The position numbers and the translations under genes were made by a program. A DNA stretch of 33,214 nt from Chiloscyllium plagiosum (taxonomy: Eukaryota), in the NCBI RefSeq assembly GCF_004010195.1, contig NC_057718.1:52310324-52343537 (forward strand), written 5' to 3'. The notes below the pieces were generated by a model, which was given only the letters and a program-made list of their open reading frames with translations, did no database searches and was not told the origin of the DNA. Positions 641-33,214 of the stretch are shown in pieces (positions within the stretch are counted from its first letter, which is position 1; each line of letters begins with the position of its first letter).

Positions 641-2001
641 CCTTTGAAGTAAAGGCAGTATGCATAGCTCAACTGCTTATAATTTGATACTTACAAACTG
701 CTATAATTGTCTCCAAGTATAAATAGGTTGCATGTTTCTTTTAGCACAATGAGTTTTCCATTGATCTCTAACATTTAAATAACCTGGTCAGGCACTTTTC
801 AACATTTCAAGCTACAGTCCCAAGTTTTGAGAACTTTATAAACCAAAAAGAAATAGTGTTAAAAAAAAGTAATTGCTTACATATCAGAATTGCAACAATG
901 TTATCTTGGGTGTTCATGGCATTACAAACTTGATTTCAATCCTGTAATTCAATATTCTACAGATATTAATCTAAAACGAATAAAATACAATACTCAGTAC
1001 TATCCTATTTGTAAAGTAAACCTGCATAAGATATTTTTAAATTGGTAAGCTCTCTAATGTATGCAAAACAAAATGGAAGAAAGTCAACATTGATTCCTAT
1101 ATTTCTGTTTGCGTGCTCTATTATTCAAAGAGTGTAAGACTGAATTATTATCAATAATTTTGACCTGATGCAGAAAGTGAGGAATTAAATTATATTCTCT
1201 TCAATTGTAGTCAACATAATACTCAGTTGTCATAAAGTACGGTCTTTGTGCATTTCTGGGTGTTATGTGGAAGGAGTGTATTTTGCTCTCCTGTCAAAGA
1301 AACCTTTTTTCTGGACCTTTTAACGGGCCATGCTGACATAAACTCAAGTTGTACAGCTATATCCATAGAAAGGTTTAATTTTGTTATTTAAACCACATAA
1401 TATGCCAATGTATATGAGCTAAACATCAGGCCCTATATCCATGAAGGTCATTAATCTCAGCTTACCTGGGGATCTCCCTTCCATAGTCTTCAAGTTCACT
1501 TCTGTTTTATTCCCACATTTCCAAAATTTCCAGTTCGCGGGCTCCAGACGCCTTATCTTTACCATGGATGTGCACTCCCTTTACACATCCATCTCCCATC
1601 AGAATGGTTTCAGGGTTGTCTGCTTCTTCCTGGAAAAAAAGGCCTGAACCGTCCCTATCCGCCATCTCTTCTCCGCCTGGTCAAGTTAGTCCTCACTTTG
1701 AACAACTTCTCCCACTTTCTTCGGTCAAAGTTATCCCTGGGTCTCCCTGGGGTATGTGGAACATTTTTGTTCCAATCCTACTCAGGTCTCACCCCACTAC
1801 TCTTTTTCCAATAAATTCATTCGTGCTGCTTCCCTCTCTCATCCAGAATTGGAAACGTTATCAATTTTGTTCCAATTTCCACCCGGCTCTCACCTTCACC
1901 TGGTCCATCTGATTCCTCCGTTCCTCAACATCTGTTTCCATTTCTGGGGATAGGTTGACCAGAAGCATGTACGATAAAACTAGTCCACTTGCCTAGTTTC
2001 T

Positions 2002-2610
2002 GAGTTGGGAGGTCATGATGCGGCTGTACAGGACAGTAGTTTGGGCACTTTTGGAATATTGTGTACAATTCTGGTCTCCCTCCGATCGGAAGAATGTTGG
2101 GAAACATGAAAGGGTTCAGAAAAGGTTTATAACGATGTTGCCAGGGTTGGAGGGTTTGAGCTATAGGGAGAGGCTGAATAGGCTGGGGCTGTTTTCCCTG
2201 GAGCATCAGAAGCTAAGGGTCTATATTGAGGTCTATAAAATCATGAGGGGGCATGGATAGGGTAAATAGACAAGGTTTTTTCCCTTGGTTGGGGGATTCC
2301 AGAACTAGAGGACATAGGTTTAGGGTGAGAGGGGAAAAATTTAAAAGGGACGTAAGGGGCAACTTTTTCACGCAGAGGGTGGTGATTGTATGGAATGAGC
2401 TGCCAGAGGACAGAGGAGGTGTTGGAGGCTGGTACAATTGCAACATTTAAGAGGCATTTGGATGGGTACATGAATAGGAAGGATATGGGTCAAGAGCTGG
2501 CAAATGGGACTGGATTAATTTAGGATATCTGGTCGTCACGGATGAGTTGGAACGAAGGGTCTGTTTCCATGCTGTACATCTCGATGACTTGATGATTCTA
2601 TGACTCAATG
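2002..2610 (+). mobile_element. 5'-truncated CR1/HER1 LINE 3' end inserted into the PLE
   Basis: MRLYRTVVWALLEYCVQFWSP...ERVQKRF...LFSLE and TRGHRFRVRGEKFKRDVRGNFFTQRVV, followed by a CR1 3'UTR and a (TCTATGA)-like tail. Confidence 0.9.
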
Positions 2611-3000: not shown

Positions 3001-3254
3001 AACCCCTTCTCTTCCTTCCCATAACACTGTTCGGCTCCCCCCTCTCAACCCCCCAGTCCTCACTTTCCACCCCCATCAGCCTCAGCATCCAAAGGATCAC
3101 AAGCCACCATTTCTGCCGCCTCCAGCAAGATGCCACTACCAATTTACCTGCACTTCATTGAATCTGATCCACCAGTGACTGCTCAACTGCAGTCTCCTCT
3201 ATCCTAGGGAGACAAAACACCAGCTGGGTGACCATTTTGTGGAACACCTATGTT

Positions 3255-3532
3255 TAGATTAGATTAGATTAGATTAGATTAGATTACAGTGTGGAAACAG
3301 GCCCTTCGGCCCAACAAGTCCACTCCGACCCGTTGAAGCGAAACCCACCCATACCCCTACATTTACCCCTTACCTAACACTATGGGCAATTTAGTATGGC
3401 CAAATCACCTGGCCCTGCACATCTTTGGACTGTGGGAGGAAACCGGAGCACCCGGAGGAAACCCACGCAGACACGGGGAGAATCTGCAAACTCCACACAG
3501 TCAGTCGCCTGAGGCGGGAATTGAACCCGGGT
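3255..3532 (-). mobile_element. HE1 SINE (V-SINE superfamily), 5'-truncated
   Basis: B box GGTTCAATTCC, V-domain GTGTGGAGTTTGCA..TTCTCCCCGTGTCTGCGTGGGTTTCCTCCGGGTGCTCCGGTTTCCTCCCACA, (TCTAA)n tail. TSD CCTATGTT 3247-3254 / CCCATGTT 3533-3540. Confidence 0.9.
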
Positions 3533-4007
3533 CCCATGTTCTGATGGTAAAAATAACCCAGAGTTTCCAGTTGCCTACCACTTTAACACACCACCTTGTT
3601 TGCTTGCCAATATTTCTGCTTTGGGCTTGAGGCAGTGCTCCAGCGAGATTCAGCACAAGTTTCAAGAACAGCATCTCATCTTCTACTTGGCGATCCTGTA
3701 GCCTTCAAACTCAAGATCGAATTCAATAATCTTAGAGCATGAACACCTCCTTCCATGTCCTTTATCTATCGCTATATCCAAGGCCCTGACATGACATGGG
3801 CTGCTTCCAGCACCGTCAACCCATTTTCACCTTCTCATGGCCTCCATTATCAACCTTTCCTCTTGCCTGGCTTACTATCAACCATCCCTTTGTCTGCTGA
3901 ACTTTCTTTCTCTCTCACTGGGCTCCTTCTCTCCTTCTCCACTCACTCCTTTATCACACAATCTCTCCCGGTCATCACCATATATACCAACTTTTCCTAG
4001 CTGCTAC

Positions 4008-6321: not shown

Positions 6322-6416
6322 CGGGCTAATGGTAAGATTCTTGGTAAAGTAGATGAGCAGAGAGATCTCGGTGTCCAGGTACACAGATCCTTGAAAGTTG
6401 CCACCCAGGTTGACAG

Positions 6417-6596
6417 AGCTTAAAAATGTGTTGCTGGAAAAGCGCAGCAGGTCAGGCAGCATCAAAGGAGAAGGAGAATCAACGTTTCGTGCCTGAAATG
6501 TCGATTCTCCTTCTCCTTTGATGCTGCCTGACCTGCTGCGCTTTTCCAGCAACACATTTTTAAGCTCTGATCCCCAGCATCTGCAGTCCTCACTTT
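6417..6596. mobile_element. PLE-terminus-derived fold-back insertion (family A)
   Basis: 75-bp inverted arms 6414-6488 / 6495-6569 plus a 27-nt one-sided extension. Perfect 15-bp TSD CACCCAGGTTGACAG 6402-6416 / 6597-6611. Homologous to PLE terminus 23548-23660. Confidence 0.92.
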
Positions 6597-7469
6597 CACC
6601 CAGGTTGACAGGGTTGTTAAGAAGGCATATAGTGTTTTAGCTTTTATTAATAGAGGGATCAAGTTCCGGAACCATGAGGTTATGCTACAGCTGTACAAAA
6701 CTCTGGTGCAGCCGCACTTTGAGTATTGCGTACAGTTCTGGTCACCGCATTATAAGAAGGATGTGGAAGCTTTGGAAAGGGTGCAGAGGAGATTTACTAG
6801 GATGTTGCTTGGTATGGAGAGAAGGTCTTTACGAGGAAAGGCTGAGGGACTTGAGGCTGTTTTCGTTGGAGAGAAGAAGGCTGAGAGGTGACTTAACAGA
6901 GACATATAATATATTCAGAGGGTTAGATAGGGTGGACAGGGAGATCCTTTTCCAAGTATGGTGACGGCGAGCATGAGGGGGCATAGCTTTAATTTGAGGG
7001 GTGATAGATTTAGGACAGTAGTAAAGGTATGGAATTCTTCGCCTGCAACGGTAGTAGATTTGCCAACTTTAAGTACATTTAAGTTGCCATTGGACAAGCA
7101 TATCGATGTACATGGAATTAGATGGGCTTCAGATTGGTATGACAGGTCGGCGCAACATTGAGGGCCGAAGGGCCTGTACTGCGCTGTAATGTTCTGTGTC
7201 CTATGTTCTATGTTCTATATTCTATATGTCTCCTATCTAGCATTTCATCACTCTGTGACTGGTTATTCAAGTTATGAAAGTTGTCCAGTTTTACATCTTA
7301 TATTCTTAGCTAGACTCCCACTTAATTGGCTTCATATACATCTTGGCTACAGTACTGGCAACACATCCCTTAATGCTAAAAGAAAATACACATAACGATA
7401 TGGGCCTATTCTAAGGTATTCATGTTCATGGAAACAATAATCTTATCTATTGTCTCACCTCACAACATG

Positions 7470-8642: not shown

Positions 8643-9241
8643 ATAATCAGTGATCCTTAAACATGACCACTGATGGTAACTTCCAAAAATGTGATGTTAA
8701 AAAGTCTCTGAATGTGGAACACTATGGTACTACAAGTGTTTCTTCTAACTCCATAATAAAACTGTAGGATATTACCAGCTAACCTGATCAAAATGCGAGA
8801 GGAAGTAGTCGAAGCAGGTACAATTACAGCATTTAAGAGACATTTGGATGGGTACATAAATAGGAAAGTTCTTTTTTTATTCACGGGATGGAGGTATTGC
8901 TGGCTCGCCAACATTCTTTACTCATTCCTAATTGCCCAGAGGGTGGTTAAGAGTCAACCACATTGCTGTGAGTCTGGAGTCACAGGTAGGATCAACCAAG
9001 CAAGGATGGCAGTTTCCTTCCCTAAAGGATATTAGTGAACCAGATGGGATTTTCTGACAATCAATTCATGGTCATCAGTAGACTCTTCATTTCAGATTTT
9101 CTTTTTTTCTTATTGAATTCAAATTCCACCAGGCTTCGAACCCAGGTCCCCGGATCTTTGGATTAACAGTCCAGCCATAATACCATAAGCTCATTGCATT
9201 ACCTGGATGTAGGTTTGCTTGCTAAGCTGGAAGGTTCATTT

Positions 9242-9281
9242 CCAGACATTTCGTCACCCTACTAGGTAACATCTTCAGTGG
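9242..9281 (-). ncRNA. Minimal type-I hammerhead ribozyme
   Basis: CCA-CTGAAGA-TGTTACCTAGTAGGGTGAC-GAAA-TGTC-TGG. Helix I CCA/TGG, helix II GTTACC/GGTGAC. Confidence 0.75.
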
Positions 9282-9658
9282 GCCTCCGGGCAAAGCACTG
9301 CTGATAATTCCTGCTTTCTATTTATATGCTTCAGTTATTTGGGTTGGTGATGTCATTCCTGTGGTGATGTCATTTCTCAGGGTAGATGGGGTCTGACTCA
9401 ATGTGTCTTTTGATAGAGTTCCGGTTAGAATGCCATGCTTCTAGGAATTCTCGTGCATATCTCTGATTCTAGATTCCTAGAAGCATGGCATTCCAACAAG
9501 AACTCATTCAACAAACACATCCAGTTAGGCCCCATCTACCACCCCCTGAGAAAAGGAACTGGAAGTGACTTCGCCACAGGAAATGACATCACCAACCCAA
9601 AGAAACCCAAACATTTAAATAGAAAGCAAGAATTATCAGCAATGCTTCACGCAGAGGC

Positions 9659-9698
9659 CTACTGAAGATGTTACTTAGTAGGGTGACGAAACGTCTGG
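9659..9698 (+). ncRNA. Minimal type-I hammerhead ribozyme
   Basis: CTA-CTGAAGA (9662-9668)-TGTTACTTAGTAGGGTGAC-GAAA (9688-9691)-CGTC-TGG. Palindromic ACGT replaces helix III. Confidence 0.8.
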
Positions 9699-11156
9699 AA
9701 ATGAACCTTCCAGCTCAGTGAGTAAACCTACATCCAGAACCTCAACCTGAGCTACAAATCTTCTCAAAACTTGCCATTGCATCCCCTTTTAGAGAGATAT
9801 GGGCCAAAACATGGGTAAATGGGACAAATTTATTTTGGAATACCTGGTGGGCATGGACAAGTTGGACCAAAGGGTTTGTTTCCTAGCTGCAAACTCTATG
9901 ACTCTATTACTGTAATCCTAACCATACTTCATGTGTGATCTTCCATTTTCACATTCTGATTGACCCTGTAATAATTGTGATCGCTTCTTTTCCAAATCAT
10001 CCTAAGATTGATTATGCATCTCCAAATGTAATTCAGCAATTATCTATTTTGATTCGATATCAGCACTTAGCATGGATTTGAATTGCAAACATAGCAGGGA
10101 AAATTTTAACTGTCTATAATTTTCTGGTAGGAGATGATTGATTTCAGTTCGATTCCTACCTGCTTGGAATGGATAACAGCACACAAATTTTAACCACTGA
10201 GGTTGATGAATATGCCCCTGACTAGCAGAGGAGACAATGAATCCATCAGCCTGCAGAAGTCACTGATTGCTGGTCTGCACCCAGGTAAATGGAGAACTGG
10301 AAATCCAGGGAGTATACAGAAGAGAGCCATATCATCTGCTGGATATCATTGCTGTAGAATCAGGAGCAAGATTAGTAACCCACTTTACGCTCTACTTGTT
10401 GCCGGCAGATTCATTCCTACCAACCCCCATCTCCAGAGTTACCTTCAGCCACACTAGTTATGCCGTCGGATCAATGTTCATTTTCTGAGGATATGCAGGC
10501 TATCTCAGAACATCTGTATGTTACAAGTTGCTTTCCCAAATAACACTGATAAGTTCTAGGCCCAACTCTCATTGAACCTTCGACTTCCCATTTGAATCAC
10601 AAGCACCATGCTCAGGCTGTAACTAGAGAATAAGCCTAAACGAATTCCTGGAGCAAGTTAGCAAATTCTTTTCAAACAACTCTTGCAAAGTTGAAACGGA
10701 AATGGGTAGCTCTCCAGGCTGAGAAAAAAGGTCATGCCTCCCATTTGTGAGGCTGTCCGAATCCCCTTCTATGAGGCACTCTTGAATCTCTCCCCTCAGA
10801 ACTTATCTATTTGAAAGGAAGATTACAGTTATACAGGCCAGAGGCCCCCTAATAATCAAAGGTTCACTCATGCCAGCTGCCTATCCATGTTAGATGCTCA
10901 ATAGATGAGCATACAGCATGGATTTAAATAGGATGTGGCAAGGAAAAAGAATATTTGTTATTAAGATACAAGAACTACTACTGGAGCAGAGAAGATGAAG
11001 TGGAGATGGAACATAAGTTTTAAATATTACGAGGCATTTTGATGTTTGAATGGGAAAATACTATTTTGCCTTGTTGGAAGGATTATGAACAAAGTTGTAA
11101 ATGTGAACTTGACATCGAGAAGACAGATTCTGACATAAAAAAACTTCTGCAGATAT

Positions 11157-20803: not shown

Positions 20804-20925
20804 ATTGTCCCTTGGTGCCTCTATGTTGGGAAGCAGACTCTGTAGGCAGTGACCATCTACATTTCCTGTCCCCATCCATGATGGCTGGCATCAGATACAC
20901 ACCAGCCTCACCACATCATCATGGC

Positions 20926-21152
20926 GGAGAAAGTGAGGACTGCAGATGCTGGAGATCAGAGCTGAAAAATGTGTTGCTGGAAAAGCGCAGCAGGTCAGGC
21001 AGTATCCAAGGAGCAGGAGAATCGATGTTTCAGGCATAAGCCCTTCTTCAGGAAGGGCTGAAGAAGGGCTTATGCCCGAAATGTCGATTCTCCTGCTCCT
21101 TGGATGCTGCCTGACCTGCTGCGCTTTTCCAGCAACACATTTTTCAGCAGAT
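20926..21152. mobile_element. PLE-terminus-derived fold-back insertion (family A) with two back-to-back hammerheads
   Basis: 91-bp arms 20961-21051 / 21058-21148, 6-nt spacer, 35-nt left extension. Perfect 11-bp TSD ATCATCATGGC 20915-20925 / 21153-21163. Confidence 0.92.
21058..21090 (+). ncRNA. Minimal hammerhead core (mirror copy on minus strand at 21019-21051)
   Basis: CTGAAGA-A-GGGC TTAT GCCC-GAAA-TGTC. Mirror copy reads CTGAAGA-AGGGCTTATGCCT-GAAA-CATC. Confidence 0.7.
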
Positions 21153-21196
21153 ATCATCATGGCACAATATGGAGCAACTTGGTCTCCAATTCACCA

Positions 21197-21230: not shown

Positions 21231-22042
21231 GTACAGTGCGACCTTATATTTCAATGCCATTGCCAGGACACTTTGCACATCGAGATAAGTACCTATCTGA
21301 TGTTTTGGAGCAGGATGAATTTCAAGACTCTCAACTTGCACTGTTAATGCTCACCTCGCCTGCAGCTGCTTGGATGCTCACAGCATCTTTGTCTTGACTT
21401 GTCATTTTTTGCATTGCCACACCATGAAGATAGTACAGGATCATCTCAGTTCTGTCTTGCCTTGCCCCTTAGTGCAGGCACAAAGCCAGGCACCTCTTCA
21501 TGTTTGCCAGCAGTGACTTATCAAGGAGGTGGATTTTGTGGTTTTACCGAACCATGCTATGTCACTGTCACACCTGGACCACAAGCAGCTTACAAAGCAA
21601 ATACACTAAATGTGCTTCGATTAAATGACATGTCTCAGAAGTCTAAGGGGAGTAGTCCTCTGTGAAATCAAATGGGACTATCATCTGGCATGGTTACCAG
21701 CACAATATGACAAGGAGATCATCCAATCTCAGTCCAGAGTCTTGGACGCATTGCTGGGGCCAGTCAGGATCAGGATCGCCATATCATTACTGTCTGGGGA
21801 GTGGGATACAGTCAGTTCTGCAGGTACAGTGCAACCAAACAAGGGACAACGAGTAAGTCAGTTGGGAGCTTTATAGAGAACAGTCAGGCATCTGGTAACT
21901 CATCAGTTGAGGTTCTCATCCAACATGCTCAGGGGAAGGGCAGTACCTGAACAGTGTTATGCTATGCTGGGCATTAGTGAAATGTAGCTGAAAATGTGTT
22001 GCTGGAACAGCGCAGCAGGTCAGGCAGCATCCAGGGAACAGG

Positions 22043-22080
22043 AGAATCGACGTTTCGGGCATAAGCCCTTCTTCAGGAAT
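22043..22080 (-). ncRNA. Minimal hammerhead ribozyme, downstream pseudo-LTR
   Basis: CTGAAGA (22076-22070)-A-GGGC TTAT GCCC-GAAA-CGTC. Core intact, helix I short. Confidence 0.8.
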
Positions 22081-22204
22081 GAGGAAAGTGTGTCCAGCAG
22101 GCTAAGATAAAAGGTAGGGAGGAGGGACTTGGGGGAGGGGCGTTGGAAATGCGTTAGGTGGAAAGAGGTCAAGGTGAGGGTGATAGGTCAGAGTGGGGTG
22201 GGGT

Positions 22205-23509
22205 CGATGGATTTGACTGAGACAAGGTGGGGGGGGGAGGAATGAGGAAACTGGTGAAATCCGAGTTCATCCCTTGTGGTTGGAGGGTTCCTAGGCGGAA
22301 GATGAGGCGCTCTTCCTCCAACCGTCGTGTTGTTGTGGTCTGGCGATGGAGGAGTCAAAAGACCTGCATATCCTTGGTGGAATGGGAGGGGGAGTTGAAA
22401 TGTTGAGCCACAGGGTGGTTGGGTTGGTTGGTCCGGGTGTCCCAGAGGTGTTCTCTGAAACGCTCTGCAAGTAGGCGGCCTGTCTTCCCAATATAGAGGA
22501 AGCCACATCGGGTGCAACGGATGCAATAGATGATGTGTGTGGAGGTGCAGGTGAATTTGTGGCGGATATGGAAGTTTCCTTTGGGGCCTTGGAGGGAAGT
22601 GAGGGGGGAGGTGTGGGCGCAAGTCTTGCACCTCCTGCGATTGCAGATGAAGGTGCCGGGAGTGGAGGTGGGGTTGGTGGGGGGTGTGGATCTGACGAGG
22701 GAGTATGATACGCTGTACATGGAGATTGGTGGGGTGGTAGGTGAGGACCAGTGGGGTTCTGTCCTGGTGGCGGTTGGAGGGGCGGGGCTCAAGGGCGGAG
22801 GAGCGGGAAGTGGAAGAGATGCGGTGGAGGGCATCGTCGCGGCGATCGCGGAGGCGGTTGTCTGAGCGACGATCGCGGAGGCTGCGAGGTCGGTGGGGGT
22901 GGAAGTGATGTCATTGTCCATGGCGGCGGGCGATGTAGCGGCCGCGTGTGTAATGGCGCCGGACTGATTTCGGAGGCCGATGGAAGATTCTGGAACAGTT
23001 GAGGTATCCGGAGTGTGGGGGTAAGTACATGAAAGTTTTTGGTACTTACTGTCTTTAATTTCCGATATGGCTAGGAAGAACTGTTTGTTTAGTGTATGGA
23101 TTCTTCTGTGGATGAAGAATAGTAGAGATCCGTTGCAGGTCTGTGAGAGTGTTGTCCTGAGCTGGGGTAGGTCGAGTTGCAGGGAATGTAGGTAGCGGCG
23201 CATGGCTGCAAGCGTGGAGCGGAGGATCCGGAGGGAGGCCCGTTGCTGGAGGCTTCAGATTTGTTGTAGGTGCTGGTTGTCCTGGTTGGGTCCAAATTTT
23301 GTTGGTCGGAACGTAGTCCGGAGTCCGTGCGGGATCAGTCAGTTCCATAGGCAGTTGCTGAGGAAGGAGATGTGGCTGTGGTAGCGAGTCTGTTTGAGAA
23401 TGTGGCTGAAGAGCTTCTGTGCAGAGGAGATGACTTGGTGTGTGCAGTGAGAGAGGGACTCACTGAAATCTTTGTAGAGGGAGGAAAAGAGCTTCTTCAA
23501 GGAAGGCAT
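22205..23509 (-). pseudogene. PLE polyprotein remnant: N-terminal domain fused to Zn-knuckle and GIY-YIG endonuclease, RT deleted
   Basis: ATG at 23507-23509 (MPSLKKL..HISFLSNCLWN*LIPHG) is in frame with ORF 22355-23203. Motifs CNRRRCKTCAH, IIYCIRCTRCGFLYIGKTGRLLAERFREH, VAQHFN, LEEERLIFRLGTLQPQGMN. TGA stops at 23339-41, 23255-57 and 22355-57. Confidence 0.9.
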
Positions 23510-23637
23510 CCTTGTAAGAGGATTCGCAGTAGGTTAAAATCTTCGAGGAGAAAGTGAGGTCTGCAGATGCTGGAGATCAGAGCTGAAAATGTGTTGCTGG
23601 AACAGCGCAGCAGGTCAGGCAGCATCCAGGGAACAGG

Positions 23638-23675
23638 AGAATCGACGTTTCGGGCATAAGCCCTTCTTCAGGAAT
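23638..23675 (-). ncRNA. Minimal hammerhead ribozyme, upstream pseudo-LTR
   Basis: Identical core to 22043-22080; CTGAAGA at 23671-23665. Confidence 0.8.
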
Positions 23676-23913
23676 GAGGAAAGTGTGTCCAGCAGGCTAA
23701 GATAAAAGGTAGCGAGGAGGGACTTGGGGGAGGGGCGTTGGAAATGCGATAGGTGGAAAGAGGTCAAGGTGAGGGTGATAGGTCAGAGTGGGTTGGGGGC
23801 AGAGAAGTCAGGAAGAAGATTGCAGGTTAGAAAGGCAGTGCTGAGTTCGAGGGATTTGACTGAGACAAGGTGGGGGGAGGGGTAATGAGGAAACTGGTGA
23901 TTAGTGAAATGTA

Positions 23914-28570: not shown

Positions 28571-30086
28571 ACAAATTACTATGTTTGCTCATCAGATGCT
28601 ACAGTTTTAGAAACAAAAACTTAGGATGATTACATTTTAACATGAGTGATGAAGCTGACGGTGCCATAATTTGCAAAGACGTCCCAATGAATTCTAAAGA
28701 GCTTTATTTTCATAGAGGCTTTTAAAATAAGCAGGTTCTTTTTTTAAGGAAATATGTTGCCAGGAAACGATACATGTATCTTTATGGTACAATTAATGAA
28801 CTCAGGCTATCCCAACGCTAAACAACTAGTGAAATCCTTTTGAAAGGGAGGGATGAATATTACCAGAAATCGGCCAGAGATGAATTTTGGGGGGGTTCTC
28901 TTTGTGACCTCCAGTGGGTTTACTGATGCTAGTCTCCACAGCTCACCTCATTAACTATACACCATTCTTCTATGACACCCTGCTCATCTTGTCTTCCCTC
29001 TCACTAGAAGATGAAGCATTCTCTATTGCAGGAACTTGCTGGCCAGCACTGTCTTTAAAGCCCAGCTGTGCATAAGGTCATGTGCTGCTGGCCAGGACAA
29101 TGTGTATAGTGGGAGAAAAATGATGAAAATGTTTCAAGGGCATAGGGGTGGCACAGCTCACACTCCGTTGCAAATGCAAGTCCACATTAGGAAAAGTATT
29201 GGTATTTTACATAAACACTTGTGTACCCAACAGTCATTTAACTGCAGCTAGAAGAACCATGCTGTACATGTTACCCAGCCTTAGTGCCATTCAATCTTAG
29301 TAATCCTGTCTAAAGGACTGCCTCTTTTCCCTAATGCCCAGCATAGCATTACACCTTCTTATTGTTCAACAGAGGAGCATCACATACTGAAAAACCTTAT
29401 TTAAAAATATTCTCATTTATTCAGCAATAGCAAAAGAGAAGAAAAATCAAGCAGAGGCTCCTTTACTTCTGGGAACAGAGAGAGGTTCCTGGCCTTCCAT
29501 TAATCAGTAAATGTGTAGTAATGCACCCAACTCGCCTTCCTTAGAATTGAGCGTCCAGCTTGTTGAGCATCTAACATGCAGAAGCTGGTATTCCTCTTGC
29601 TCAATTTCTTCATATTCGTCCTTGGAAGTACCCTGCTGCTCTTCCAACACTTCAGTTTCCATTACATCCTCTCTTTGCCTGCTCAACTTGTGCAGAGAGC
29701 TGCATGCAAGACTTATGCGGCTCCGCACTGTACTGTAAAACCCCATCAGACCTATTCTACCATTGTGTGAGAAACGAAGCTCACTCAATTCAAGAATTTC
29801 AGTCCGAGACAAGATCTGAAGCAGTAGTATCGTTTATTACGTTCTTGCAAGAGGGGTGTGGTGTCTATTTACCAGGTAGTCACACACACATCGAGTTTAA
29901 CGAGTATACAATATTTATGTAATTCGTCTCTCTTCCCTCCTCCCATTGCTCCTCCCCTGTTTACATTTCCCACTACTCTAAGCCTGATGCCCACTACTCT
30001 TGTTTATCTCTAAACTCATCCGGCCTTGTCCATGACAAAATGTTTACCTCTGGCCTCACAAGGCCGTTTGACCACATCCCTCTGTG

Positions 30087-30357
30087 TCTAGATTAGAATG
30101 GTGCTGGAAAAGCACAGCAGTTCAGGCAGCATTCGAGGAGCAGTAAAATCGACTTTTCGGGCAAAAGCCCTACATCAGGAATACAGGCAGAGAGCCTGAA
30201 GGGTGGAAAGATCAGGCTCTCTGCCTGTATTCCTGATGAAGGGCTTTTGCCTGAAAAGTCGATTTTCCTGCTCCTCGGATGCTGCCTGAACTACTGTGCT
30301 TTTCCAGCACCATTCTAATCTAGACTCTGGTTTCCAGCATCTGTAGTCATTGTTTTT
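30087..30357. mobile_element. PLE-terminus-derived fold-back insertion (family B) with two hammerhead cores
   Basis: 114-bp arms 30086-30199 / 30212-30325 plus a 32-nt right extension. TSD ACCACATCCCTCTGTG 30071-30086 / ACCACAGCCCTCTGTG 30358-30373. Confidence 0.92.
30229..30265 (+). ncRNA. Minimal hammerhead core (mirror copy on minus strand at 30146-30182 has CTGATGT)
   Basis: CTGATGA (30233-30239)-A-GGGC TTTT GCCT-GAAA-AGTC. Confidence 0.65.
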
Positions 30358-32452
30358 ACCACAGCCCTCTGTGGTCATTTTGTTATATATCCTTCTTCAC
30401 TGCCATCTGTTTCCCTTCCTTTCTAAAGCAACATTTCCTTTTATTCTTTGCTCAAACTGAGCCTTATGACTTCTTGATTGTGTTTGTTCTTGTTTTTGCA
30501 GAAGCAGGAAACAGATGCTTATAACTACTGTTTTTACAGGCATATCTAACTTAACCCCCTCCCCTCACAGCACCTGACCTATTTGTCTGTAACATCTACC
30601 ATTGTTTGCAGGCACATTTCATTCTTGTATGCACATTTTAGCCAATACAAAAACAATTATATATTTCCTTCACATAGTTTTCATTCTTGTTAACTTAGCT
30701 TTTGGTTGAAACAATTATACACTGGTGTGAGTTCATTTACCTTGCATAAGTAATTATGATTGCAGAAGTAACACTGCTTTACCTATATCCCACAATTGAA
30801 AGTCCTACTTCAGCAGTCCTCTTATCTGCATCACAATGGTCTTGCCAAAGAATGGGCTGCACTCCACTCAGTTTTAGTTAGGGGGATGCACATTGGAGCC
30901 ATAGTTACAGTGAGTAGTCCTTGTTTCCCAATAGTCATTTTGTACGGCACTGACCCTTGAATTACAGAATGAACATATGAGTTCTCAAACATATAGGCAT
31001 CATGAAAACTTCTAACACAGACTTCTAAGATGTGGTACCATTGATCACAGATGGCTTGCACATTAATGAATATGGTAGAGTCAACACAACATGTGCACAG
31101 TCTGTAGTAGCCTACACAAGGGAGGATCCAACAATGTCAGGAAAACCTACAGCTTGGCTGCTGCACCAACCAGTACCAAATGAGATGCAATGCTGAGATC
31201 AGGATCAAATTACATTGGTAACAGTCTTGATATATGTTGTACAGTGAGAGATTAAGTTGAGGGTTGCAAGAGTCCGCCCAGTTCCCCAATGGATTTGAGA
31301 AAGCAGCCAGTCACATAAATGTTTAGCACAGCTGTCACATTGATGGTTATTACAACTCCTTCAGGTTAACGGTCCTCCTTCAGCAATTCACACAGTTCTG
31401 TGACAGAGTCCCAGGACATCTGTAATCTCCCATGACACTACGCTTCAGTTAACTGGAGGAAACTGCATTGAAGATGATACACTAACCTCCTCTGTGCTCT
31501 GAGGGGACCTTCAACGTGACACCTTTATGTGGGGGCTGTTGAGCAGCCTCGGGGTGTTGCTGCTAGTCCGGGGCTTGTAGGCACATTTATTCCTCTTTAA
31601 TTTCTCTGCACTTTTGCAACATTACATAAATAGCAATGATAAACCCAGCTGTGACTGGATCCATTGGTCACAATTCCAATAAATCTCTGTTAGGAATGCC
31701 AGAAATAGGGCAGCTGTTAAGTAATGCAAGCAGAAATTGTTGGCATCATACACAAATTATGGTTTAATATAGTCCCCCTTACAGTGGGACACAGAGGACA
31801 CCAGCAAGGAGGGTAACAGATTGGCTCTCTATGGACCTTTGACATGGGGATCTTAATCTGATAATTGCAGCGCAAACCATGTCTGGTAAATACAGTAGGA
31901 AATTGTAAGTCCTATACAATTACTGCGGCCTTGTTCCTCACCCCACTATCATGAAAAGACAACATTTCATACAAGAGCATGTTTGTAACTATTCACAATT
32001 CAAGGTGAGGGGATATCAACTCAATGCCCTGTGCAACCTTTGGGATCATGGATTGGCTTGTGAATAGTATCTGTAGGTGCCACTTTTAAGGTCACCTGTG
32101 ATTACTTCTGCTTCTCAGAGAACTCTATAACCAATAACCAGTGATATGGTTAAGACTGTTTGTGACTAGAATATGCATCCCAAATAGCTGGACATTACAA
32201 GTGATTTACATGCACAACTCCAATATATTCACAATACAGTCTGTACTTCAATGCTGCTCTTTGAAGCACATTAGCACCTTTCAATAGAATGCTGGTGCCA
32301 GGCACTTTGCATCTATTTCAGTGTGCACAGCATCTCTGCTTTGCCTTGCCTTTTTGTGCTTTGCCCCCTCATTCAGAACTTAAAGACTCACAATTCTTCT
32401 CTCTTGCTTTGCTTTTTATTGCAGTCACAAAGCCAGGCTGATTGTAACCATC

Positions 32453-32617
32453 AGGTAAAAACAAGGATTGCAGATGCTGGAAACCAGAATCTAGATTAGA
32501 GTGGTGCTGGAAAAGCTCTATTCCTGATGAAGGGCTTTTGCCCGAAATGTCAATTTTCCTGCTCCTCGAATGCTGCCTGACCTGCTGTGCTTTTCCAGCA
32601 CCACTCTAATCTAGACT
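32453..32617. mobile_element. Asymmetric PLE fold-back insertion (family B) with one hammerhead
   Basis: 32-bp arms 32485-32516 / 32589-32620. TSD CTGATTGTAA(CCATC) 32438-32452 / CTGATTGTAA(TCGTT) 32618-32632. Confidence 0.85.
32520..32556 (+). ncRNA. Minimal hammerhead ribozyme
   Basis: CTGATGA (32524-32530)-A-GGGC TTTT GCCC-GAAA (32544-32547)-TGTC. Confidence 0.75.
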
Positions 32618-33010
32618 CTGATTGTAATCGTTGTCAGCAGTGAACAGTCAATGAGGTGGACATGTTGCTGTATGGCTTGTGCTACATCAATGCCACTCCT
32701 GCACCACATACCTGCTATGTAAGCACCAGACATACTGCATGAGCATCAATCAAATAACCATCTCTCAAAGTCTAGGTAGAGTCATCCTCAGTCAAGTCCA
32801 TGGATGCACTCTTCAGTCAGGGGGTTCTGACGCAGTACATTCAGGACTGCTACTGACAAATCCTTGGGCATGGCCAGATGGCTAGCTGGGGTAGTCAAGG
32901 TCATGGGATCTCTGTTGTGTGGGGAGTTGGACCATTTGGGGAATCATAAGAAGACAGTTGGGGAGCTGCATGGATATCAGTCAGGGATCTGATCACTTGT
33001 TATTTGTGGC

Positions 33011-33214
33011 AATCTTTGAGGAGAAAGTGAGGTCTGCAGATGCTGGAGATCAGAGCTGAAAATGTGTTGCTGGAAAAGCGCAGCAGGTCAGGCAGCATCC
33101 AGGGAACAGGAGAATCGACGTTTCGGGCATAAGCCCTTCTTCAGGAATGAGGAAAGTGTGTCCAGCAGGCTAAGAACATCATCTATTGCATCCTCTGCAC
33201 CCGATGTGGCCTCC
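33011..33214. mobile_element. Family A PLE: inverted pseudo-LTR (33011-33175, minus) joined to sense GIY-YIG sequence (33176 to window end)
   Basis: 33011-33175 matches 23538-23702. 33176-33214 reads IIYCILCTRCGL, the reverse complement of ~22497-22536. Confidence 0.88.
33111..33148 (-). ncRNA. Minimal hammerhead ribozyme
   Basis: CTGAAGA (33144-33138)-AGGGCTTATGCCC-GAAA-CGTC, identical to the 22043 and 23638 copies. Confidence 0.8.

What the first reader, a model, noticed from the sequence alone, without database searches (positions are those of the whole stretch)
21973..23913. Retrozyme-like RT-less Penelope element: two direct hammerheads bracket a 1595-nt unit carrying only the endonuclease
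Seen: one insertion with a perfect 14-bp TSD and two identical hammerhead cores in direct orientation, with predicted GUC cleavage at 23644 and 22049 on the minus strand, 1595 nt apart. An ATG lies ~135 nt after the first site and no RT motifs are present. Established: PLEs carry minimal hammerheads that act as dimers through the palindromic ACGU, and retrozymes are processed by tandem hammerheads into unit-length and circular RNAs. Inference: the two cores could complement each other in cis and release a circularisable RNA. It would be mobilised in trans by an autonomous RT and would ancestrally have encoded its own GIY-YIG nuclease.
Basis: partly seen in the sequence, partly recalled or inferred. 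Interest (0 to 1): 0.8.

Follow-up and report, generated by a model that had tools for sequence, protein, structure and literature searches.

The report
Internally deleted shark Penelope-like retrotransposon copy
This is a young, decaying copy of a known kind of jumping gene (a Penelope-like retrotransposon, likely from a shark) that has lost its copying enzyme; its two predicted self-cutting RNA motifs are standard parts of such elements, and I found no sign that this shortened form has spread as a family of its own.

Summary
The anatomy is real. There is a 14-bp TSD, two identical minimal hammerhead cores 1595 nt apart, an ATG 135 nt after the first site, no RT core, and breaks at 22839 and 22705. 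It is not 'endonuclease only': the N-terminal domain, linker and an RT-thumb remnant remain, and the endonuclease frame has a premature stop. Two direct hammerheads are the published pLTR-ORF-pLTR layout of Penelope-like elements. The dimer and circle model was already proposed for them in 2014. The family test was negative. In four runs, none of the 32 longest of 5,419 laid contig pieces bridged the RT-removing junction, and relatives continue into the deleted DNA on both sides. Single- or low-copy junctions can be missed this way. A 48-nt deletion in only the 3' pLTR shows this 1595-nt unit was not the circular template of this insertion. Differences from the family majority look neutral (6 of 23 synonymous; two stops). 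Verdict: likely a one-off deleted Neptune-type copy. The scan noted a similar RT-less copy before in another genome (e1-9007410, unchecked). The two larger deletions restore the frame between N-terminal domain and endonuclease, a lead only.

The parts
23900..23913 (.). target-site duplication, 5' side (14 bp, AT-rich)
   Evidence: exact match to 21973-21986
23581..23899 (-). 5' pseudo-LTR: 5'-truncated upstream unit (end of the EN frame plus 3' region), carrying the 48 nt that the 3' copy lacks
   Evidence: alignment to the 3' copy: 3 mismatches in 218 nt, 4 in 54 nt, one 48-nt gap
23644..23671 (-). minimal type I hammerhead core, predicted cleavage after 23644
   Evidence: sequence; helix II pair probability 0.91-1.0, helix I about 0.002, helix III 0 as monomer
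23510..23580 (-). 5' untranslated region; 23580-23546 is the family's optional ~35-nt 'tail'
   Evidence: family copies end with unrelated flanks at 21986 (=23581) and at 23545-23548 (table 7)
22840..23509 (-). ORF start: N-terminal domain and low-complexity linker, stops at 23341 and 23257
   Evidence: tblastn to P0004 1-225 (81%), P0002 1-156, P0001 3-209; stops
22839..22840 (-). junction J1: deletion of the rest of the linker and the whole RT core (about 1.4-1.6 kb by full-length homologs), frameshift
   Evidence: jump from P0001 ~209 to 676 and to P0002 700; family pieces stop at 22839 on both sides and go on into RT or linker
22705..22839 (-). remnant of the RT thumb / RT-EN linker, in a shifted frame
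   Evidence: P0002 700-743, P0007 224-267
22704..22705 (-). junction J2: deletion of about 100 nt; returns the frame to that of the ATG
   Evidence: P0002 743 to 777; loose end at 22705 in 73 contigs, agreement 0.94
22619..22645 (-). CX4CxxC Zn-finger-like linker motif (Neptune/Nematis mark)
   Evidence: translation; definition in PMC8557442
22169..22704 (-). GIY-YIG endonuclease region, premature stop at 22357, frame ends at 22171-22169
   Evidence: Pfam PF01541 E 1.6e-4, 22.3 bits against cut-off 22.6; 83% identity to P0005; stops
21987..22257 (-). 3' pseudo-LTR, with private 48-nt deletion J3 at about 22204/22203
   Evidence: organism B contigs carry the missing letters as a loose end at 22203 (128 contigs)
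22049..22076 (-). second minimal hammerhead core, predicted cleavage after 22049, 63 nt upstream of the element's 3' end
21973..21986 (.). target-site duplication, 3' side; base 21986 also fits the element

Best explanation
This is one decaying insertion of a Neptune-type Penelope-like retrotransposon in the usual partial-tandem layout, which likely lost its reverse transcriptase at this locus alone, probably by template jumps while it was being copied. Shown: TSD, two pLTRs each with a minimal hammerhead, three internal deletions, three stops. Inferred from known PLE biology: the protein of an intact family member nicked an AT-rich site and began reverse transcription internally, at the family's usual 3' end 63 nt past the hammerhead site. 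It copied more than one unit (1913 nt between the TSDs) from an uncleaved tandem RNA, or a circle, of the full-length element. It skipped 48 nt, about 100 nt and about 1.5 kb on the way and stopped 319 nt into the next unit. Loss of the same pieces after insertion is the lesser variant of this reading. The copy has since drifted neutrally. The hammerheads are inherited pLTR parts and are predicted to cut poorly without protein help.
For: Full-length PLE proteins align in three blocks with the RT core missing. Shark relatives with RT joined to this same EN exist (P0005-P0007). None of the 32 longest of 5,419 pieces from four runs crosses 22839; the longest are 55 letters, and loose ends run into RT or linker. 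Relatives also carry the DNA missing at 22705 and 22203. The 48-nt gap is in one pLTR only, whereas a circle of this unit would have put it in both. Of 23 coding differences where at least 90% of X1 depth has another letter, 6 are synonymous, 15 non-synonymous and 2 stops, against a neutral expectation of 28% synonymous. One private letter (23132) is held at depth 10, like the unique flank at 11.5-14.5. Family ends 35 nt apart match the PLE tail (PMC8557442, PMC11167929). Hammerheads in both pLTRs are the rule (PMC4209133).
Against: The junction test is not sensitive to rare forms: run X1 holds this insertion's flank junction (record 2), yet J1 itself did not appear, so a low-copy family would be missed too. 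J1 and J2 together restore the frame between N-terminal domain and EN with no stop in the 44 shifted codons (about 1 in 3 by chance). Another in-frame RT-less PLE protein exists (P0044, 1 of 165 proteins examined). The synonymous count rests on the 40 best-supported of 359 rows. No whole genome was held.
Confidence: 0.8

Rival explanations
1. Low-copy non-autonomous family (SIDE-like): J1 and J2 arose in a source copy that was mobilised in trans by an intact Neptune protein, and only J3 and the stops are private to this locus.
For: Both pLTRs, the 3' end and the 5' region are kept. The TSD is perfect. Three deletions in a copy only about 1-2% diverged are many for one locus. Contig tests drop rare forms. 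R2 SIDEs (PMC6765202) and non-autonomous Chlamys PLEs (PMC8557442) are precedents.
Against: No bridging piece at J1 in four runs of three organisms. J3 shows that deletions arise at this locus. None of 14 or the best 150 protein hits has this fusion.
Confidence: 0.11
2. One reading: a selected, retrozyme-like 1595-nt circle cut out by a cis double hammerhead, coding for its own nuclease and copied by an autonomous RT.
For: The cis dimer fold is nested and possible. The insert is longer than one unit, as rolling copying would give. N-terminal domain and EN are in one frame.
Against: J3 is in one pLTR only. Decay is neutral with three stops. The cis dimer costs 21.5 kcal/mol in the nearest-neighbour model (no tertiary term, no active control). 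No pile-up of read ends in RNA run X21 (a polyA library, 2% read, so weak). For the anole PLE, hammerhead mutants insert normally in vitro (PMC11167929).
Confidence: 0.04
3. The RT-removing deletion is private to the sequenced individual or an assembly collapse, and other individuals carry a longer copy at this site.
For: X1 holds the 3' flank junction but no J1-bridging piece was listed.
Against: Contig assembly is expected to drop a single-copy link between two high-copy stretches (tool note: contigs drop rare variants). Three separate clean junctions with at most 1-nt overlap at J1 do not look like one collapse.
Confidence: 0.05

Closest known systems
Neptune-type EN+ Penelope-like elements (PMC8557442, PMC4209133)
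   Same: Partial tandem with pLTRs, minimal hammerhead in each pLTR, N-terminal domain, CX2-5CxxC linker, C-terminal GIY-YIG, 30-40 nt tail, AT-rich target.
   Different: This copy lacks the RT core and two smaller pieces and has three stops; clade placed by motif only, no RT tree.
Poseidon element of Anolis (PAc; PMC11167929)
   Same: Two family 3' ends about 35 nt apart, downstream of the hammerhead site, as expected from internal RT initiation; AT-rich insertion site.
   Different: In PAc the hammerhead overlaps the start codon and initiation is inside the ORF; here both lie upstream of the ATG. No biochemistry here.
Metazoan non-LTR retrozymes (PMC7229834; bioRxiv 10.64898/2026.07.22.740005)
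   Same: Type I hammerheads in direct orientation, no RT, PLE ancestry, long TSD.
   Different: Retrozymes are short (about 150-450 bp; consensus 51-972 bp), non-coding, low-GC tandem repeats, mostly with canonical hammerheads and abundant circles. This is 1.6 kb of PLE ORF remains, 50-58% GC, with minimal cores and no shown copy number or circle.
R2 SIDEs (short internally deleted elements; as reviewed in PMC6765202)
   Same: Internally deleted, ribozyme-bearing retroelement with both ends kept.
   Different: SIDEs are amplified families; amplification of this form was tested and not seen.

Membership tests
EN+ Penelope-like element (Neptune type) | partial tandem forming pseudo-LTRs | tested here: met
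   23899-23581 repeats 22257-21986
EN+ Penelope-like element (Neptune type) | minimal hammerhead in each pLTR | tested here: met
   definition PMC4209133
EN+ Penelope-like element (Neptune type) | C-terminal GIY-YIG endonuclease | tested here: met
   PF01541 E 1.6e-4, just under the curated cut-off; tblastn E 2e-39 to P0001; premature stop
EN+ Penelope-like element (Neptune type) | CX2-5CxxC linker motif | tested here: met
   CX4CxxC at 22645-22619 (PMC8557442)
EN+ Penelope-like element (Neptune type) | the parent family has RT and EN in one ORF | tested here: met
   P0005-P0007 join RT to this EN; loose ends at 22839 run into RT
EN+ Penelope-like element (Neptune type) | 30-40 nt tail | tested here: met
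   family ends at 21986/23581 and 23545-23548
EN+ Penelope-like element (Neptune type) | RT phylogeny places it in Neptune | not tested
   no reference set of named clades at hand
autonomous PLE copy | intact RT-EN ORF in this copy | tested here: not met
   RT core deleted, three stops
non-LTR retrozyme | short unit (about 150-450 bp; at most 972 bp) | tested here: not met
   1595 nt against PMC7229834 and the bioRxiv survey
non-LTR retrozyme | non-coding, low GC | tested here: not met
   PLE ORF remains; GC 0.58 and 0.50 in the two 1-kb bins
non-LTR retrozyme | canonical type I hammerhead | tested here: not met
   2-bp helix I, no monomer helix III
non-LTR retrozyme | self-cleavage and abundant unit-length circles | not testable with these tools
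   only a polyA library was laid; the unit-end joint is also genomic
non-autonomous internally deleted family (SIDE-like) | same junctions in many copies | tested here: inconclusive
   no bridge at J1 among the 32 longest of 5,419 pieces: against a high-copy family, blind to a rare one
non-autonomous internally deleted family (SIDE-like) | keeps both ends and has its own TSD | tested here: met

The most novel reading that the evidence does not exclude
RT-less 'half-PLEs' recur under selection: frame-compensating deletions fuse the N-terminal RNA-binding and dimerising domain to the GIY-YIG nuclease. This gives a partner protein and a hammerhead-released RNA that borrow only the RT of intact elements, and this locus is a dead daughter of such a low-copy lineage. 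P0044 and the earlier skate-like note would be independent cases.
Probability: 0.06. Interest if true: 0.6.

Novelty: new member of a known kind. Interest (0 to 1): 0.15.

Why it matters
As it stands it matters little: a broken copy of a very abundant repeat. Two small uses remain. First, the family's two 3' ends, 35 nt apart and 63 and 98 nt past the hammerhead site, extend the internal-initiation signature shown for an anole Poseidon to a shark Neptune-type family. Second, differences between the two pLTRs of one insertion test whether PLEs are copied from unit circles or from tandem RNA. If a nuclease-coding, RT-less family were found, it would be a missing step between PLEs and animal retrozymes.

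Tried and rejected
Genome-wide junction search: no genome is held for this window. Rfam: no hammerhead match at E up to 1, uninformative for minimal cores. No RNA holder was listed on record; this blank is no evidence. Back-splice reading of the joint 23580 to 21986 (272 reads in X21): rejected, because it stands in the contigs of all three other runs and is plain pLTR-to-UTR sequence. Junctions as spliced introns: the loose-end letters give no GT-AG ends on either strand (read by eye). Selected fusion protein: rejected for this copy by neutral decay. Of 165 proteins held, 8 had N-terminal, RT and EN hits; 7 were full length and one (P0044) lacked the RT core, with another junction, in a cluster of 1 member on 2 contigs. 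Promoter scan uses a bacterial consensus and is irrelevant here. Pfam found nothing in three other long frames near the element, so no host gene was identified. Earlier-findings search by sequence gave nothing. Lunse et al. on dimer cleavage was not held; I saw only its title in a reference list. Literature searches listed no title or abstract start on an RT-less, nuclease-coding PLE family, but most listed papers were not read and subscription journals and Repbase/Dfam were not searched.

Full report
Observation. The element lies on the minus strand between an exact 14-bp duplication, 23900-23913 and 21973-21986. No repeat of 14 nt or more joined any of about 3000 random zone pairs at that spacing. 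Two identical hammerhead cores lie at 23671-23644 and 22076-22049, 1595 nt apart, inside a 218-nt direct repeat. The ATG is 135 nt after the first predicted site.

What it is. The best named protein relatives come from carpet sharks (Hemiscyllium, Chiloscyllium, Rhincodon), so the window is likely from such a shark; no genome is held. Full-length PLE proteins P0001 and P0002 (RT plus GIY-YIG) align in three blocks: N-terminal domain at 23509-23033, a thumb/linker remnant at 22832-22701 in another frame, and the nuclease at 22699-22253. P0004 extends the first block to 22838 at 81% identity. So the unit is not 'endonuclease only'. J1 removes roughly 1.4-1.6 kb with the whole RT core, and J2 about 100 nt. 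A third gap of 48 nt lies in the 3' pLTR only. J1 and J2 together return the frame, giving 446 codons from the ATG with stops at 23341, 23257 and 22357. A CX4CxxC motif before the nuclease marks the Neptune/Nematis type (PMC8557442; passages and section 6 read). I built no RT tree.

The hammerheads are standard. Cervera and De la Pena (PMC4209133; parts 1-2 of 4 read) report minimal hammerheads in both flanking repeats of PLEs, a palindrome at positions 15.2-16.2, low activity even as dimers, and a model of cleavage, circularisation and more-than-unit copying. Frangieh et al. (PMC11167929; parts 1-2 of 4) found that an anole PLE hammerhead cuts only with protein, is not needed for insertion in vitro, and that RT starts internally at two sites that define the tail. 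Here, family copies end with unrelated flanks at 21986 (219, 114 and 261 contigs in X1, X2, X9) and at 23545-23548. These ends are 35 nt apart, and 63 and 98 nt past the cleavage site, so the element's ends are not set by the ribozyme. In folding, helix II is stable (0.91-1.0), helix I is near zero, and the core is caught in a small hairpin. The cis double hammerhead is nested and possible but costs 21.5 kcal/mol in the 1691-nt RNA, and 9-18 kcal/mol in short in-silico dimers. These figures lack tertiary energy and an active control, so they say 'weak', not 'dead'.

Family or one-off. On 21600-23580, four runs showed a unique flank at depth about 11-15 in X1, summed depths near a million over the 3' part, and 36,000-104,000 over most of the N-terminal part. 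This is the 5'-truncation profile of a very abundant family, though summed depth is no copy number. At 22705, 73 contigs of X1 continue into the deleted DNA (agreement 0.94); at 22203, 128 contigs of X9 do. On 22785-22892, the 32 pieces shown of 5,419 (the longest kept) from X1, X5, X9 and X15 are at most 55 letters and none crosses 22839; loose ends on both sides read on into RT or linker. This argues against a high-copy deletion family. Against my reading: X1 carries this insertion's 3' flank junction (record 2) yet showed no J1 bridge, so the test misses single-copy and perhaps low-copy junctions. J2 had no narrow test. In organism B a flank contig (14 differences in 270) stops at 21986 with 27 unlaid letters, consistent with an empty site; the letters were not shown.

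Circle of this unit. The insert is 1913 nt, one unit plus 319 nt. Rolling copying of a 1595-nt circle would copy the overlap twice from one template, so J3 would be in both pLTRs; it is in one. Either the template was a longer RNA and J3 arose in copying or later, or the two pLTRs came from different units. In both cases this 1595-nt RNA was not the mobile form. In RNA run X21 (polyA, single cell, about 2% read; 2,939 reads laid, 129 at 99% or better) reads lay on both strands, the flank had none, and no place had a pile of ends. The unit-end joint (272 reads) also stands in the contigs of X1, X2 and X9. This neither shows nor excludes circles.

Selection. Table 3 showed 40 of 359 rows. I took the 28 inside the element, dropped 1 outside the frame and 4 with a share under 90%, and classed 23: 6 synonymous, 15 non-synonymous, 2 stops, against 28% synonymous expected under neutrality. 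The pLTRs differ at 3 of 218 and 4 of 54 sites, so the copy is young and drifting. Of 165 proteins held, none has this fusion. One unrelated singleton, P0044 (349 aa, 42-44% to full-length PLEs), joins an N-terminal piece in frame to thumb and nuclease without the RT core. An earlier, unchecked scan note reports a like copy in another genome (e1-9007410). RT-less deletion thus recurs, with no evidence yet of amplification.

Comparison. Animal non-LTR retrozymes are short, non-coding, low-GC tandem repeats with mostly canonical hammerheads (PMC7229834, passages), and are argued to derive from PLE pLTRs (bioRxiv 10.64898/2026.07.22.740005; parts 1-3 of 5 read; its supplements were not seen and may list shark families). 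This element fails on size, coding content, GC and ribozyme type, so it is not filed as a retrozyme; it could at most work like one. Amplified internally deleted forms are known for R2 (PMC6765202, passages) and Chlamys PLEs, so even a family would be a variant of a known kind.

Verdict. Most likely (0.8) a single, decaying, internally deleted Neptune-type PLE copy, with deletions probably made during reverse transcription (inferred). Low-copy non-autonomous family 0.11, private or assembly deletion 0.05, selected nuclease-coding circle 0.04. Interest 0.15.

Noticed in passing
window 6402-6611: Short inverted pair of pLTR 3' ends (75-nt arms, 97% complementary) of the same family with a 15-bp TSD (6402-6416 = 6597-6611), inserted in a LINE RT remnant.
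   Followed up: partly
window 20915-21163: Inverted pLTR pair (91-nt arms, 96%) with two hammerhead cores back to back, tail on one arm only, 11-bp TSD; a hairpin-forming, MITE-like product of PLE insertion.
   Followed up: partly
window 30078-30373 and 32453-32621: Related subfamily (CUGAUGA core, about 85% identical) as an inverted pair with 114-nt arms and a possible 9-bp TSD, and as a rearranged solo copy.
   Followed up: partly
window 33011-33214: A second young copy of the same family (99% over 165 nt, tail included) joined to an inverted piece of the GIY-YIG region; runs off the window end.
   Followed up: partly
window 9203-9737: Inverted pair (141-nt arms, 86%) carrying a different minimal hammerhead with a longer helix II and the same ACGU palindrome; probably another PLE family.
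   Followed up: no
window 1552-2008 and 3134-3710: Older, degraded PLE RT and GIY-YIG remnants on the plus strand.
   Followed up: no
window 21747-21773: Run X1 has two contigs that stop on either side of this stretch, one with 288 unlaid letters, while X2 and X9 run through: a possible polymorphic insertion in the flank.
   Followed up: no
protein P0044: Unrelated 349-aa PLE protein with an in-frame join of N-terminal residues 1-68 to thumb and endonuclease, RT core absent; singleton cluster on 2 contigs.
   Followed up: partly
protein P0004: A shark gene model named 'mucin-2-like' is the N-terminal domain and linker of this PLE family, so a likely misannotation.
   Followed up: partly
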